Assembly: GCA_951406725.2 (NCBI GenBank) | Contig: OX597827.1 | Span: forward strand, 74,524,001-74,588,000 | Length of the DNA: 64,000 nt | Direction: 5' to 3' | Origin: Octopus vulgaris | Taxonomy: Eukaryota | Shown: positions 187 to 4,735 of the stretch, in pieces | How positions within the stretch are numbered: the first letter of the stretch is position 1 | How the letters are laid out: each line of letters opens with the position of its first letter | Program-made: the position numbers

Positions 187-1481
187 GTGTGTGTACCAAA
201 TCCACCAACAAGGCTTTGGTCAGCCCGACGCTATAATAGAAGACATATGCACAACGTGACATGCAGTGGGATTGAAACCGGATCCATATAGTTGGAAAGC
301 AAGCTTCTTACCAAACTATCATTCATTAATAACTCTATCACCACTGAACACCATTTGTGATATAGGGAGACGACGTATGCAAAAGATCCTGAAGGAAGTC
401 GTTTGTCTTCTCGTGATTCTCTATAATTATCTATATTTGATATTTCATCGAATTTTATTTTACGCGAATACTTTCATCTCATTCTCTGTGGTTACATTCC
501 ATTGATCCACGTTGAAATACAATGAGGAATCAAGTATATACTCATCTCTATCTAGTGTCTGTAATGCTAAAAGAAATAACAATATCTAGCATATTAAGTC
601 ATCTATACTATGTCATAAAACTCTTATAATAGCAATTTATGGCTAACATGGTTTTTATTATTTCAGAATGTCTCAGCGGTAAATTTGGTCGTAATTGCAC
701 AAAGTCCTGTCATTGTTCCGAAACATGTAACCACACCAATGGATTATGTCCAGGAGTGTGTGATGCAGGATACACCGGGTACAACTGCCAAGAAGGTTAT
801 TTCCAATACTTTTTATTCCAATATTTTAAAATTCTCTACATTTGATTTAGTGTTTCTTAGCATAAATCAACTTTCTTATTTATCATCAAAAACTACTTCA
901 ATATTAACTCATAAGTTATGTTTTAAGATAAGATAATAAAAAAGCGTATCATTGATGTCTCACATATATTTGTAGAAGAGAACTCTTACAGCCATAACTT
1001 TTATTGTGTGGAGCTAATAATATCTAATCTATTGTGTTTTGTATTAATATTTTCAGAATGTGAAGCTGGTAGATTTGGTAAGAATTGTGGAAGGACATGT
1101 CATTGTATCGACGACGAAAACTGCGACAGAATAACTGGAAAATGCTCAGACGGATGTTCTGCTGGATATAGAGGATCCTCTTGTCAACAAAGTATGATAT
1201 GAAATTATAATACATTTCATAAAATTATGTTTAAATCTCTGCATCTGATTCTTATTTTATCTTTCCTTTCATTTAATTAACGTGGTAATGGAGACGCAGA
1301 CTAACCAGTTTATTTTCCAAACTTACATTCATTAAATACTTCGTGAATTCATATCGAGATATATTGAGATATATGGGTTCTATGCGCTTGTATGTATGCT
1401 GTATATATGTATGGATATGTATTTGTACATATACATGTATATGTATTTATGCATATACATACATATATATATATATATAGA

Positions 1482-1533
<52 letters not shown>

Positions 1534-1985
1534 CATATATATATATATATGTGTGTGTGTGTATAAATGTATATATATATATATATATATTGATAAAACG
1601 GTAAGATAACAAAAGAAAGAAAGAGACCTCAATATTATGTAAATAGAGGAAATTTATCTATACAATATGTTACATTACTCGGTAGTCAAGATAAAACTCT
1701 GAGTTTCAGATGCCGAAGTGGAAATCCACAACACCATCTCATCGGTTATCTGGCTATTTGAAAACGTTATGAAAAAAATTTTATGAAAAAATATATGAAA
1801 AAATATACCGTTATGAAAAAATATACCGTTATGAAAAAATATATGAAAAAATATTTAACGGTATATTTTTTCATAGCGTTTTCAAATAGCCAGATAACCG
1901 ATGAGATGGTGTTGTGGATTTCCACTTCGGCATCTGAAACTCAGAGTTTTATCTTGACTACCGAGTAATGTAACATATTGTATAG

Positions 1986-2017
<32 letters not shown>

Positions 2018-4735
2018 TTATGCTTATATATATATGTCTCTCTATATATATACATGTAAATATATATATATCTATGTGTGTATGTATATAATATGTACAT
2101 ACATACGTATCAGTGTAATACACACATATATATAGCTCACACACACATGTAACTTTTAAACAAATTATCTTAATATGGGGTAGGACCGCCTTTGGCAGTA
2201 ATTACACCTTCAATTCTACAAGGTATGGACTCGCACAAACTTTGAATTGTTTCCAAAGGAATCTTTGTCCATTCTTCAACAAAAACAATCTCCATTTCTT
2301 GTAGTTTTGATATCGATATGGTCGAGGGTATCGGCTCTTTACTTGTTTTCATAAATGCACAATAAATGCTCAATAATATTGAGATCTGGTGACACTGGTA
2401 ACCCGATGAACTTCACTTCACTAGAATGATATTCCTGCCATTCAGTAACAACTTTAGCTGTGTGAATTGGTGCATCATCATCCTGAAAGATTGCGTTTCT
2501 CTCAGGAAACAGTTCCGCAACCATAGGATGAATTTGATTAGATAAAATGCTTAAATAGCCTTTACCATTAATTCTGCCATGAAGGGAAACAATTAGGCCG
2601 GGGAATTTCCAAGATATATCCCTAACCCAGATCATCACAGATTTTGCTCCATATTCAACAGTTGGAAGAAGGCGGTCTGGATCAAATGGTTCTTGCTTCT
2701 TTTGGATCTCTCCACACGTTAACTCGACCGGTGGTCGGAAATAGGGTGAAGAATGCTCTAGGACCAATTCTGTTGTTTTTTACTCCACCCTAAAAAAATT
2801 GCGACGTTTGATTTTCAAAGTAGTGGTTTTCTGAATAAGCACTCCCGTAAAATCTGGCTTTGTGCAGCTCTCGGGAAACAGTTTTTGTGGAAACAGGATT
2901 CCCAATGTAGTTCTTCAGCTCTGCAAGAGTTTTGGGAACTGTACTTTTGTGATCCATTCTAACAATTCGCGTAGGAGTCCCTATCTGATAGTTTTGGTTC
3001 TCTTCCGGAGTTTTGTTTCGAAGAGGAGGTTTTTCCCACTTTCTCAAAGGCTGCATTACTTTCAGGACAGTACTTCTTGATAAACCAAACATTTCGGCTG
3101 TTTTTGTTATGCTAGCACCTGTCATATGAGCACCAACAATTCGACCTCTTTGAAAGTCCAATAGATGTGTTATTTTAATAGATTTTAATTACCTTTTTCT
3201 AATGATAACTGAAAAGAAACAGCAATTTTAGCAAGACATATTATGCGACAATAATAAATCAGAAAATATATAAAAATAATTTTTTGATGGTTTTTATAGC
3301 TATTTCAAAATTTTGATGCTATAATAGTAGGCGTTTCCATTATTTTGTCCAACCTCTGTATATATTCATCATAGATATAAGGTAGATGAGAATACTTGAA
3401 GAAGACATACAGAAATCGATTGAACTAAAGGATAGGCTATAATATCCATGTTAAAAACGTCATTTCAATGAGATTAGGTATCATTAACAATCATCATCAC
3501 CAGTGTACATCCGTTCTGTATGTTGGTAGCCGTTTGTGCGGTTCTAGGTGTCCCAACCCGGATCCATATGGGTAGGAATCAAGCTTCTTACCAAACTTTC
3601 ATTCATTAATATCTCTATCACCATTGAACACCATTTCTGATATAGGGAGGGGACGTATGCAAAAGTTGCGGAAGGAAGTCGTTTGGCTGCTTGTGATTCT
3701 TTATAATTATCTATATTTGATATTTCATCGGATTTTATTTTACGCGAATACTTTCATCTTATTATCTATAGTGACATTTCATTGATCCACGTTGAAATAC
3801 AATGAAGAATCAAGTATATACACATTTCTATCTAGTGTATGTAATGCTAAAACAAATAACAATATCTAGCATATTAAGTCATCCATACTATATCATAAAA
3901 CTCTTATAATAGCAATTCATGGCTAATGTCTTTTTTTATCTCAGAATGTCGCAATGGTAAATTTGGTCCCGAATGCACAAAGTCCTGTCATTGTAACGCA
4001 ACATGTAACCACATAAATGGATCGTGTTCAGGAGTGTGTGATGCAGGATACACCGGATACAACTGCCAAGAAGGTTATTTCCAATACTTTTTATTCCAAC
4101 ATTTTAAAATTCTTTAGTGTTAAGTGTTTAGTGTTTCTTAGCGTAAATCAACTTTCCTATTTATCATCAAAGACTACTTCAATGTTAACTCATGAGTTAT
4201 GCTTTAAGATAAGATTATAAAAAAGCGTGTCTTTGATGTCTCACATATATTTGTAGAAGAGAGCTCTTACAGCCATAACTTTTATTGTGTTGAGCTAATA
4301 ATATCTAATCTATTGTGTTTTGTATTAATATTTTCAGAATGTGAAGCTGGTAGATTTGGTAGAAATTGTGGAGGGACATGTCATTGTATCGACGACGAAA
4401 ACTGCAACAGAAAAACTGGAAAGTGCCCAAAAGAATGTTCTGCTGGATATAAAGGCTACAATTGTCAACAAAGTATGATATGAAACTATGATACATTTCA
4501 TAAAATTATGTTTAAATCTCTGCATCTGATTCTTACTTTATGTTTCTGTTTATTTCATGATGAGAACTATACTGGATTATAACCAATATAATTTCCAAAC
4601 TTAGATTCATTAAATGCTTCGTGAATTCATATTGAGATATGTTGGATGCATGCGTTTCTATGTATGTTGAATATATGTATGGATGTATGGATGTATGTGT
4701 ATGTATTTATACATATACATATATATGTATTTACG

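What the first reader, a model, noticed from the sequence alone, without database searches (positions are those of the whole stretch)
667..4472. Duplicated EGF exons diverge mainly at amino-acid-changing sites, faster than the intron between them
Hand alignment: A1 vs A2 differ at 16/129 nt, giving 9 amino-acid changes and 1 purely synonymous codon. B1 vs B2 differ at 15/135 nt, giving 10 changes and 2 synonymous codons. All Cys are kept. The ~260-nt A-B intron differs at only about 12 scattered sites plus one short block (roughly 7%). B3 vs B4 show 3 amino-acid changes and 1 synonymous codon. Inference: diversifying selection on ligand-facing residues over a fixed disulfide scaffold, as seen in immune or allorecognition receptors.
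Basis: partly seen in the sequence, partly recalled or inferred. Interest (0 to 1): 0.82.

Follow-up and report, generated by a model that had tools for sequence, protein, structure and literature searches.

The report
Duplicated EGF exons in octopus phosphatase
Two neighbouring pairs of small cysteine-rich (EGF-like) exons in an octopus receptor phosphatase gene are copies from an old tandem duplication that have since drifted at about the background rate while keeping every cysteine, so the case for adaptive diversification is suggestive only.

Summary
B1/B2 differ at 15 of 135 nt, with 10 replacement and 2 silent codons. All 16 Cys are kept.

The reading is weaker than the counts suggest.
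- Normalised per site, dN/dS is 0.53 for A and 0.96 for B.
- Random mutation already makes 78% of changed codons replacements. The observed 86% gives P=0.12.
- The A-B intron (6.5% diverged) is the low outlier. The other 1,759 aligned non-coding bases of the same 3.28-kb duplicated unit differ by 11.4%, and the exons by 11.7%.

The exons belong to an EGF array of an Octopus vulgaris receptor-type tyrosine phosphatase gene.

Two features are beyond chance: Cys retention (P=0.005) and the crowding of changes into few codons.

Site models over the ten EGF exons give ω of about 3 at about 30% of sites (p of about 0.001). That signal falls to p=0.18 once the deep A/B branch is dropped and double-nucleotide changes are allowed. 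Silent third-position changes also cluster in the same codons.

Verdict: an ordinary exon-pair duplication with a constrained scaffold and near-neutral loops. Positive selection is unproven.

The parts
275..3402 (+). Copy 1 (U1) of the tandem duplicated unit. It holds A1, the A-B intron, B1, microsatellites, a foldback insertion and a Tc1/mariner remnant. Start-to-start spacing to copy 2 is 3278-3281 bp.
   Evidence: Self-BLAST and repeat families D8, D9 and D13-D18. Per-segment alignments.
3555..6108 (+). Copy 2 (U2) of the duplicated unit. It holds A2, the intron, B2 and a Tc1/mariner remnant. It lacks the foldback insertion.
667..795 (+). EGF exon A1. It is 129 nt, phase 1-1, with 8 Cys. 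It is present at 100% identity in O. vulgaris models P0004 and P0005.
796..1056 (+). A-B intron of U1 (261 nt). It is 6.5% diverged from its U2 partner. Its last ~100 nt are almost identical between the copies.
1057..1191 (+). EGF exon B1. It is 135 nt, phase 1-1, with 8 Cys. It is present at 100% identity in P0008, which is named an O. vulgaris RPTP T-like isoform X8.
3945..4073 (+). EGF exon A2. It is 129 nt with intact frame, AG/GT sites and 8 Cys. No retrieved protein matches it above 79% identity.
4074..4337 (+). A-B intron of U2 (264 nt).
4338..4472 (+). EGF exon B2 (135 nt). It is present in P0004, P0005 and P0008. It differs at 1 of 44 residues from O. sinensis P0001.
2151..3402 (-). 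Decayed Tc1/mariner-like transposase remnant in U1. It is broken into several frames.
   Evidence: ORFs. Pfam DDE_3 E=4e-5 and HTH_Tnp_Tc3_2 E=4e-4, both below the curated cut-offs.
4917..6108 (-). The same transposon remnant in U2, 10-12% diverged from the U1 copy. The transposon is therefore older than the duplication.
1652..1991 (.). Foldback element with 126-nt arms, 98% complementary, and an 88-nt loop. It is present only in U1, so it was inserted after the duplication.
   Evidence: It is absent from the U2 alignment.
12067..12186 (+). Decayed A-type pseudo-exon. Most Cys are replaced and there is no GT donor.
   Evidence: tblastn. Sequence.
14868..14882 (+). Last ~15 nt of a truncated A exon with its GT donor, upstream of B3.
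15123..15257 (+). EGF exon B3.
18565..18693 (+). EGF exon A3.
18928..19062 (+). EGF exon B4. It is the young duplicate of B3. The units 14868-16292 and 18679-20101 are 94.8% identical.
26511..26636 (+). EGF exon A4 (126 nt).
26882..27016 (+). EGF exon B5.
29705..29833 (+). EGF exon A5, the last EGF exon before the membrane-spanning exon.
33992..34087 (+). Exon encoding the hydrophobic membrane-spanning segment (EKSTLSILVLVLVPLLLFILLIIGLAAAIWYW). The borders are approximate.
39892..58468 (+). Exons of the juxtamembrane region and tyrosine-phosphatase domain. The borders come from tblastn and are approximate. The WPD loop is at ~48968. The HC|SAGVGR signature is split between the exons ending ~49069 and starting ~50034.

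Best explanation
**What it is**

The region is the start of an array of EGF-like cassette exons in an Octopus vulgaris receptor-type protein tyrosine phosphatase gene. The protein runs F5/8-type-C lectin-like domain, EGF array, one membrane span, phosphatase domain.

A1-B1 and A2-B2 are the two copies of a 3.28-kb tandem duplication. The most likely origin is unequal crossing-over. The duplication carried both exons, their intron and an older Tc1/mariner remnant.

The copies are about 11% diverged. I infer that this is older than the split of O. vulgaris from O. sinensis.

**How it evolves**

Each exon encodes one 8-Cys module and is in phase 1 at both ends. Any subset of exons therefore splices in frame.

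Since the duplication, selection has held the Cys/Gly scaffold. The loop positions have changed at about the neutral rate, and those changes are clustered in a few very variable codons.

The low divergence of the A-B intron is local rate variation in its last ~100 nt. It is not a sign of fast exons.

**Shown and inferred**
- Shown: the anatomy, the rates and the scaffold constraint.
- Inferred: unequal crossing-over, the age, and cassette use of the exons.
For: **Identity of the gene**
- Exon peptides hit O. vulgaris proteins at 100% identity and O. sinensis proteins at 76-88%. Those proteins carry F5/8 type C and Y_phosphatase domains.
- The window also encodes the membrane exon and the phosphatase exons.

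**The duplication**
- Co-linear homology covers exons, introns and the transposon remnant.

**Rates**
- Exons 31/264 (11.7%) against non-coding 217/2020 (10.7%), p=0.60.
- dN/dS is 0.53 for A and 0.96 for B, pooled 0.71.
- pN at a-priori variable columns is 0.170 against pS 0.156.
- The neutral simulation reproduces the codon counts, P=0.12.

**Scaffold**
- 0 of 16 Cys changed, P=0.005-0.012.
- 18 of 19 changes are in variable columns.
- The decayed pseudo-exon at 12067 shows what loss of constraint looks like.

**Older pairs**
- Older unit pairs show the usual pattern of exons slower than introns, in 5 of 5 pairs.

**Use of the exons**
- Models differ in which exons they use. P0004 and P0005 use A1-B2-B3. 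P0008 uses B1-B2-B3-A3-B4.
Against: **Site models of my own favour a class with ω of about 3**
- M2a against M1a p=0.0013. M8 against M7 p=0.0009. M8 against M8a p=0.0003.
- With 7 sequences p=0.0005.
- Without the deep A/B branch p=0.0067.

**Very variable columns run above the non-coding rate**
- At columns that are very variable in other repeats, pN of the young pairs is 2.1-2.8 times the non-coding divergence, p=0.0007-0.005.

**More double-hit codons than expected**
- 9 codons have two differences against 5.0 expected, even when only variable codons are counted, P=0.009.

**Limits of the evidence**
- Non-coding divergence is itself heterogeneous (6.5-17.8%, chi-square p=0.004), so the 'neutral rate' is not sharply defined.
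- Cassette use of the exons rests on predicted models only. I saw no RNA data.
Confidence: 0.6

Rival explanations
1. Positive (diversifying) selection acts on about a dozen loop positions of the EGF modules. These are alignment columns 2, 3, 8, 12, 13, 21, 25, 28, 32, 38 and 40. New exon copies would acquire new binding surfaces on a fixed disulfide frame.
For: - M2a against M1a LRT 13.27 (p=0.0013, ω2=3.3, 29% of sites).
- M8 against M7 LRT 14.10. M8 against M8a LRT 11.70.
- IQ-TREE topology LRT 13.76. With 7 sequences, leaving out A2, B1 and B4, LRT 15.13.
- 11 of the 19 young-pair changes fall in the 22 of 86 column instances picked by that 7-sequence run, P=0.0007.
- With a double-hit rate on the 10-exon tree, p is still 0.008.
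- Null simulations: 0 of 18 and 1 of 21 replicates reached 5.99.
- pN at very variable columns is 2.1-2.8 times the non-coding rate.
Against: - Pairwise dN/dS is 0.44-1.13 in 20 of 20 pairs.
- M0 gives ω=0.62, below 1 (p=0.023).
- B exons alone give p=0.34.
- Without the deep branch and with double hits, LRT is 3.48 (p=0.18).
- pS is as high as pN in the same very variable codons, 0.24-0.34.
- 7 of 10 third-position changes share a codon with a position-1/2 change, P=0.0007. That points to mutation clustering.
- The 7-sequence site list still used A1 and B2, so the overlap test is not fully independent.
- 6 of the 8 window exons with a close O. sinensis match differ from it at 0-1 residue.
Confidence: 0.22
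2. Clustered mutation, either multi-nucleotide events or short gene-conversion tracts copied from paralogous EGF exons elsewhere in the array or in neighbouring paralogous genes, put several nearby differences into the exons at once. This would mimic selection and leave unique introns untouched.
For: - Adding a double-hit rate improves lnL by 14 units.
- Codons with two or more differences: 9 of 22 changed codons against 29 of 185 non-coding triplets, p=0.008.
- Silent and replacement changes share codons, P=0.0007.
- At most changed columns both states also occur in other repeats. For example A2's A18/I23/S26/S28 occur in the first A repeat of P0001, P0003 and P0006. B1's D23/I25/S30/D31/G32 occur in P0002 and P0007.
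Against: - The PHI test on the ten exons shows no recombination signal: P=0.42 overall, 0.99 for A and 0.76 for B. Its power is low.
- No window exon matches a run of consecutive changed codons, only single codons.
- Outgroup polarisation often puts the two differences of one codon on different copies, which argues against single events.
- Donor DNA outside the window could not be examined.
Confidence: 0.25
3. The intron, rather than the exons, is the odd part. A later gene conversion or unequal exchange would have homogenised a short stretch across the 3' end of the A-B intron and the start of exon B. Alternatively that stretch is held by splicing signals.
For: - The A-B intron at 17/261 against other non-coding at 200/1759 gives p=0.018.
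- The best low-divergence tract is 953-1080, with 2 of 128 against 87 of 832 outside it.
- Exon A differences lie in its 5' two-thirds and exon B differences mostly in its 3' half.
- The last ~90 nt of this intron are still alignable to the older units.
Against: - The tract scan is borderline: P=0.053 in 1,000 permutations.
- The p=0.018 is one of five segments compared.
- Non-coding rates are heterogeneous even without this intron, p=0.023.
Confidence: 0.2
4. One copy of each pair is a dying exon that is no longer spliced in, and the divergence is simple decay. A2 appears in no model, and B1 is skipped in P0004, P0005 and P0001.
For: - A2 has no protein match above 79% identity among the candidates returned.
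- Two of three locus models skip B1.
- dN/dS is near 1.
- Real decayed A exons exist nearby.
Against: - All four exons keep an open frame, AG/GT borders and 8 of 8 Cys, P=0.005 under neutral change.
- B1 is in P0008 at 100% identity.
- Derived changes are spread over both copies: A1 5, A2 6, ambiguous 5; B1 8, B2 4, ambiguous 3.
Confidence: 0.1

Closest known systems
EGF-like repeats of scavenger receptor class F (SCARF1) and the MEGF10/Draper/CED-1 group, and of Tie2
   Same: - The repeats are ~43 residues long with the motif C-x2-G-x-[FY]-G-x2-C-x3-C-x-C.
- A profile of the ten window exons hits SCARF1 (8hna_B, E=6.9e-5), an 'EGF-like domain-containing protein' (6u11_A, E=1.2e-4) and Tie2 (2gy5_A, E=0.008).
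- Database names for the octopus relatives are 'MEGF6' and 'draper'.
   Different: - The cytoplasmic part is a tyrosine phosphatase (Y_phosphatase E=9e-77), not an engulfment-signalling tail.
- Pfam finds F5/8 type C and no EMI domain at the N-terminus.
- The second half of the module has C-x3-C where I recall C-x-C in MEGF and SCARF repeats.
- No single exon reaches a Pfam EGF gathering score.
Classical receptor-type protein tyrosine phosphatases (the annotation calls the gene 'receptor-type tyrosine-protein phosphatase T-like')
   Same: There is one membrane span followed by a Y_phosphatase domain with a WPD loop and the HCSAGVGR signature.
   Different: The ectodomain has none of the MAM, Ig or FN3 domains that I recall as defining the PTPRT (R2B) group. 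Pfam reports only F5/8 type C domains outside the phosphatase, and the EGF array fills the rest.
Tandem arrays of symmetric cassette exons that grow by unequal crossing-over (the general exon-duplication model; Dscam1 and EGF arrays of matrix proteins are recalled examples)
   Same: - All ten exons are in phase 1-1, and each is one module.
- Units of 3.3-3.8 kb are duplicated together with their introns.
- Predicted transcripts differ in which exons they contain.
   Different: There is no evidence here for regulated or mutually exclusive splicing. The number of exons is small, and usage is known only from predicted models.
Receptors with hypervariable residues on a fixed scaffold under diversifying selection
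   Same: Cysteines are invariant and a small set of loop columns is very variable.
   Different: Pairwise dN/dS is not above 1 and the site-model signal is not robust. No polymorphism data were available. Nothing links this gene to immunity or allorecognition.

Membership tests
EGF-like module (SCARF/MEGF/Tie type) | Conserved cysteine spacing in a ~40-45-residue module | tested here: met
   All ten exons have C-x8-C-x3-C-x-C-x3/5-C-x6-C-x3-C-x8-C. There are 13 invariant columns, including 8 Cys.
EGF-like module (SCARF/MEGF/Tie type) | Significant profile match to known EGF-like repeats | tested here: met
   The profile of the ten exons against PDB chains hits SCARF1 at E=6.9e-5, 6u11_A at 1.2e-4 and Tie2 at 0.008. 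A single exon alone is weak, at E=0.02 and 0.11.
EGF-like module (SCARF/MEGF/Tie type) | Pfam EGF family above its gathering score | tested here: not met
   0 of 10 exons reach a cut-off. The best is EGF_STAB1-2 at 17.7 bits against 27. No EGF family reaches E<=0.01 for whole P0001 or P0008.
EGF-like module (SCARF/MEGF/Tie type) | EGF fold | tested here: inconclusive
   The AlphaFold2 model of B1 has mean pLDDT 73.3. Foldseek against the PDB gave 58 matches, all with E>=1. Most of the listed targets are EGF-containing proteins (Notch ligands, laminin, netrin, Tie2).
Classical receptor-type protein tyrosine phosphatase | Y_phosphatase domain with catalytic HC(X)5R signature and WPD loop (motif definitions recalled) | tested here: met
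   Pfam Y_phosphatase is E=9e-77 for P0001 and 7e-76 for P0008. The window encodes WPDH at ~48968. It encodes VVHC at ~49058 and SAGVGRTG from ~50034, in adjacent exons.
Classical receptor-type protein tyrosine phosphatase | Single membrane span between ectodomain and phosphatase | tested here: met
   A hydrophobic run ILVLVLVPLLLFILLIIGLAAAIWYW is encoded at ~33992-34087. This is read from the sequence. No membrane-span predictor was run.
PTPRT-like (R2B) receptor phosphatases | MAM-Ig-FN3 ectodomain (recalled definition) | tested here: not met
   Pfam on P0001 and P0008 lists only F5/8 type C families and phosphatase families.
MEGF10/Draper/CED-1 | N-terminal EMI domain and a non-enzymatic signalling tail (recalled definition) | tested here: not met
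   There is no EMI hit, and the tail is a phosphatase.
Tandem segmental (exon-pair) duplication | Co-linear homology through exons, intron and flanking non-coding DNA in head-to-tail copies | tested here: met
   275-1577 matches 3555-4862 (86%). 2151-2579 matches 4917-5349 (87.5%). 2638-3402 matches 5348-6108 (88%). Spacing is 3278-3281 bp.
Genes under diversifying selection | dN/dS above 1 between copies | tested here: not met
   0.53 and 0.96 for the two young pairs. 19 of the 20 within-type pairs are below 1, and the highest is 1.13.
Genes under diversifying selection | A site class with ω>1 by likelihood-ratio test | tested here: inconclusive
   p=0.0009-0.0013 on ten exons. A alone gives p=0.023 and B alone p=0.34. 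Without the deep branch and with double hits p=0.18. The code is my own and not codeml.
Genes under diversifying selection | Excess replacement polymorphism or fixation in populations or orthologues | not testable with these tools
   No octopus DNA other than the window could be reached. The only open contig collection holds bacteria and archaea.

The most novel reading that the evidence does not exclude
The EGF array of this octopus receptor phosphatase, and of its paralogues clustered on the same chromosome, may be a diversity-generating recognition module. Exon pairs would keep duplicating. About eleven loop positions per module would be driven to change, with ω of about 2-4. The in-frame cassette exons would be spliced in different combinations. 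One gene cluster would then yield many receptor ectodomains coupled to phosphatase signalling. That would be an EGF-based counterpart, in a cephalopod, of isoform-diverse recognition receptors.
Probability: 0.12. Interest if true: 0.7.

Novelty: new member of a known kind. Interest (0 to 1): 0.3.

Why it matters
As it stands, this is a textbook case of how repeat proteins grow. A symmetric exon pair was copied together with its intron and a dead transposon, and afterwards only the disulfide frame was kept.

It also serves as a caution. Raw counts of 'replacement against silent codons', and a comparison with a single short intron, overstated selection.

If the fragile site-model signal proved real with more species and population data, it would point to a rapidly diversifying phosphatase-coupled surface receptor family in octopus. 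My five literature searches aimed at this gene family or pattern listed no paper on it.

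Tried and rejected
- **First regex for exons.** It used the wrong frame and found nothing. It was replaced by a Cys-motif scan and tblastn.
- **The repeat finder on the whole window.** The output was swamped by microsatellite families. Only D8-D20 were useful.
- **First change-point scan.** It was dominated by a badly alignable stretch at 1237-1329. I repeated it on 275-1236, where the result was borderline (P=0.053).
- **PHI recombination test.** No signal, with low power.
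- **Search for a conversion donor among window exons.** No run of matching codons.
- **Outgroup polarisation.** No asymmetry between copies. The outgroups are distant, so this is weak.
- **Biopython YN00.** It returned no value for 18 of 20 pairs.
- **Single-exon Pfam and PDB searches.** Only sub-threshold EGF hits.
- **Fold of one exon and Foldseek.** The model has low confidence and no match is significant. The tool gives no coordinates, so variable sites could not be mapped.
- **blastp of P0004 against P0001.** I wanted to compare ectodomain and cytoplasmic conservation. The repeats make the alignments uninterpretable, so I did not use it.
- **The listing of cluster members.** Isoform counts and accessions stayed unchecked.
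- **tRNA scan.** None found.
- **Literature searches.** No paper on this gene family or on selection in its EGF exons. I saw the listings only.
- **Parametric bootstrap.** It is small, at 21 and 18 replicates. One replicate of the first run reached 16.4, probably because the M1a fit used a single start.
- **Not used.**
  - I did not use complex prediction, the search of protein representatives, the protein-atlas search or the bacterial genome collection. None could answer the open question.
Exons were handled one by one.

Full report
**What the window is**

The sequence is AT-rich (GC 0.26-0.40), full of microsatellites, and has no N.

Peptides of single exons hit Octopus vulgaris proteins at 100% identity (P0004, P0005, P0008). 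They hit O. sinensis proteins at 76-88% (P0001, P0002, P0007). Those proteins carry F5/8 type C domains and a Y_phosphatase domain, E=9e-77 and 7e-76.

On the + strand the window encodes:
- ten intact EGF-like exons;
- a membrane-spanning exon at ~33992-34087;
- the phosphatase exons at 39.9-58.5 kb.

The WPD loop lies at ~48968. The HC|SAGVGR signature is split over two neighbouring exons.

I take no part of the window for human. Exons were searched one by one. The joined step, searching or folding a spliced model of my own, was left out.

**Checking the observation**

Exon borders are as follows:

| Exon | Coordinates |
|---|---|
| A1 | 667-795 |
| B1 | 1057-1191 |
| A2 | 3945-4073 |
| B2 | 4338-4472 |

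Each is flanked by AG and GT and is in phase 1 at both ends.

A1/A2 differ at 16 of 129 nt, with 9 replacement codons and 1 silent codon. B1/B2 differ at 15 of 135 nt, with 10 replacement and 2 silent codons. All 16 Cys are kept.

The intron between A and B has 17 mismatches in 261 aligned bases plus a 3-base indel. B3/B4 differ at 5 of 135 nt, as D12Y, K21T, D38E and one silent codon.

**Is it more than chance?**

The codon counts are not. Of the 258 sites in complete codons, 206.7 are non-synonymous. Six of the nine changed replacement codons of A hold two differences, and one of those is often silent.

| Pair | Nd / Sd | dN | dS | dN/dS (NG86) | dN/dS (YN00) |
|---|---|---|---|---|---|
| A1/A2 | 11 / 5 | 0.119 | 0.226 | 0.53 | 0.94 |
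| B1/B2 | 12 / 3 | 0.122 | 0.127 | 0.96 | 1.07 |
| pooled (pN/pS) | 23 / 8 | - | - | 0.71 (Fisher p=0.35) | - |

In 5,000 simulations I placed 31 random substitutions on A1 and B1. These gave on average 21.4 replacement codons and 6.1 silent codons, or 78% replacements. The observed 19 of 22 has P=0.12.

**The intron comparison**

A1-B1 and A2-B2 are two copies of a tandem unit. Start-to-start spacing is 3278-3281 bp. Homology runs through the upstream intron, both exons, their intron, the downstream intron and a decayed Tc1/mariner-like element on the minus strand.

Divergence by segment:

| Segment | Mismatches / aligned | Divergence |
|---|---|---|
| upstream | 39/390 | 10.0% |
| exon A | 16/129 | 12.4% |
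| A-B intron | 17/261 | 6.5% |
| exon B | 15/135 | 11.1% |
| downstream | 33/185 | 17.8% |
| transposon remnant, part 1 | 51/429 | 11.9% |
| transposon remnant, part 2 | 77/755 | 10.2% |

The exons (31/264, 11.7%) match all non-coding DNA (217/2020, 10.7%, p=0.60). They differ only from that one intron (p=0.048). The intron itself is low against the other non-coding DNA (200/1759, p=0.018). Non-coding rates are heterogeneous (chi-square p=0.004).

The low value comes mainly from the last ~100 nt of the intron and the first 24 nt of exon B. The tract 953-1080 has 2 of 128 differences against 87 of 832 outside it. That is borderline in 1,000 permutations (P=0.053).

In all five older unit pairs the intron is more diverged than the exons, 32-35% against 22-26%. 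In the B3/B4 unit the exon (3.7%) is below its flanks (14/249 and 46/1035). 'Exons faster than intron' is therefore a local feature of one intron.

**What is really non-random**

1. No Cys changed: P=0.012 hypergeometric and P=0.005 by simulation.
2. 18 of the 19 amino-acid changes fall in the 55 of 86 columns that also vary among other repeats (P=0.0009).
3. The differences crowd into few codons.
   - There are 22 changed codons against 27.5 expected (P=0.0008).
   - 9 of the 22 carry two differences, against 29 of 185 changed non-coding triplets (p=0.008).
   - That is also more than the 5.0 expected when only variable codons are used (P=0.009).
4. 7 of the 10 third-position differences sit in codons that also changed at position 1 or 2 (2.2 expected, P=0.0007). 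By my reading of the codon list, five of those seven are not needed for the amino-acid change.

**Selection tests with more sequences**

The window holds A1-A5 and B1-B5. All 20 within-type pairs give NG86 dN/dS of 0.44-1.13.

I wrote a Goldman-Yang codon likelihood program (F3x4, my own code, not codeml). On the ten exons:

| Test | Result |
|---|---|
| M0 | ω=0.62, below 1 with p=0.023 |
| M2a against M1a | LRT 13.27, p=0.0013, ω2=3.3 at 29% of sites |
| M8 against M7 | LRT 14.10, p=0.0009 |
| M8 against M8a | LRT 11.70 |
| IQ-TREE topology (M2a/M1a) | LRT 13.76 |
| 7 exons without A2, B1, B4 | LRT 15.13 |

The 7-exon run picks columns 2, 3, 8, 12, 13, 21, 25, 28, 32, 38 and 40. These hold 11 of the 19 young-pair changes (P=0.0007). 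The run still included A1 and B2, so this overlap is not fully independent.

Simulations under M1a gave 1 of 21 and 0 of 18 replicates above 5.99.

Against this reading:
- A alone gives p=0.023 and B alone p=0.34.
- Allowing double-nucleotide changes improves lnL by 14 units and lowers the LRT to 9.65.
- With separate A and B trees, so without the long A/B branch, the LRT is 10.03 (p=0.0067). With the double-hit rate added it is 3.48 (p=0.18).

In the young pairs, pN at columns that are very variable in other repeats is 2.1-2.8 times the non-coding rate (p=0.0007-0.005). But pS in the same codons is just as high, at 0.24-0.34.

From recall, unmodelled multi-nucleotide changes and recombination are known to inflate such tests. 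A PHI test found no recombination among the ten exons (P=0.42, low power). No window exon supplies a run of the changed codons.

**Context from related proteins**

- O. vulgaris models use different exon sets. P0004 and P0005 use A1-B2-B3. P0008 uses B1-B2-B3-A3-B4.
- A2 is in no retrieved protein, with a best identity of 79%.
- O. sinensis P0001 carries close matches of eight window exons. B3, A3 and A4 have 0 differences. B2, B4 and B5 have 1. A5 has 3 and A1 has 5. The total is 11 over 343 residues. P0001 has no close match of B1 (9 differences) or A2 (9 differences).
- Many states that distinguish A1 from A2, or B1 from B2, occur in repeats of paralogous genes.
- The two species split about 2.5 Mya with 3.2% mitochondrial difference (PMC10700109, passages seen). 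I infer that the 11% divergence of the units is older than that split.

**What the module is**

- All ten exons share the spacing C-x8-C-x3-C-x-C-x3/5-C-x6-C-x3-C-x8-C.
- Their profile hits SCARF1 (E=6.9e-5), 6u11_A (1.2e-4) and Tie2 (0.008) among solved structures.
- No single exon reaches a Pfam gathering score.
- The fold of one exon is of low confidence (pLDDT 73), with no significant Foldseek match.

**Verdict**

The finding is a real and accurately counted tandem duplication of an EGF exon pair in an octopus receptor phosphatase gene.

The best reading is purifying selection on the disulfide frame, near-neutral change in the loops, and clustering of changes in a few very variable codons (confidence 0.6). 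Positive selection on those codons (0.22) and clustered mutation or micro-conversion (0.25) remain open and are not mutually exclusive.

No orthologous DNA, population data or RNA data could be reached, and I did not ask for supplementary files. The five searches aimed at this gene family or pattern listed no paper on it. For those five I saw only the listings. Of the two octopus papers found, I read matched passages only.

Noticed in passing
window 1652-1991: A foldback element with 126-nt arms (98% complementary) and an 88-nt loop lies between B1 and the transposon remnant. It is present in unit 1 only, so it was inserted after the duplication. It looks MITE-like but was not classified.
   Followed up: partly
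window 2151-3402 and 4917-6108, minus strand: Decayed Tc1/mariner-like transposase remnants lie in both duplicated units. They give DDE_3 and Tc3-type HTH hits below the Pfam cut-offs and are 10-12% diverged from each other. The element predates the duplication and serves as an internal neutral yardstick.
   Followed up: yes
window 12067-12186 (+): A decayed A-type EGF pseudo-exon has most Cys replaced and no GT donor. It is closest in sequence to A5.
   Followed up: partly
window 14868-14882 (+): Only the last ~15 nt and the donor of an A exon survive upstream of B3. The B3 unit has lost its A partner.
   Followed up: partly
window 667-795 (A1) against P0001 residues 617-658: A1 differs from its best O. 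sinensis match at 5 of 42 residues. Six other exons differ at 0-1 and A5 at 3. Either A1 changes unusually fast between sister species or the match is not its orthologue.
   Followed up: no
window 669-794 and 3947-4072: N-glycosylation sequons differ between the copies. A1 has NCT at position 9 and NHT at 21. A2 has NAT at 17 and NGS at 24. By my reading, four of the nine replacements (N9E, S17N, T23I, L26S) make or break a sequon.
   Followed up: no
window 16203-16394 = 17036-17227; 16864-17035 against 17398-17228: There is a 192-nt direct repeat at 100% identity and a 172-nt inverted repeat at 99.4%, both within about 1.2 kb. This could be a very young insertion or an assembly artefact.
   Followed up: no
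window 19885-19796 and 16076-15987, minus strand: Residues 6-35 of the O. vulgaris model P0004 map at 100% identity to the minus strand inside the duplicated B3/B4 units. That model's N-terminus looks chimeric.
   Followed up: no
window 18930-19061 (B4): The window encodes K at residue 2 of B4. Both the O. vulgaris model P0008 and O. sinensis P0001 have E there. This could be an allelic or an assembly difference.
   Followed up: no
window 28297-28924 against 35691-35061: Inverted copies of a ~630-nt repeat (79% identical) flank the region that holds A5 and the membrane exon.
   Followed up: no
window 22001-24000: There is a strong G-over-C skew of 0.50 in a 2-kb bin, probably a G-rich simple repeat.
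   Followed up: no
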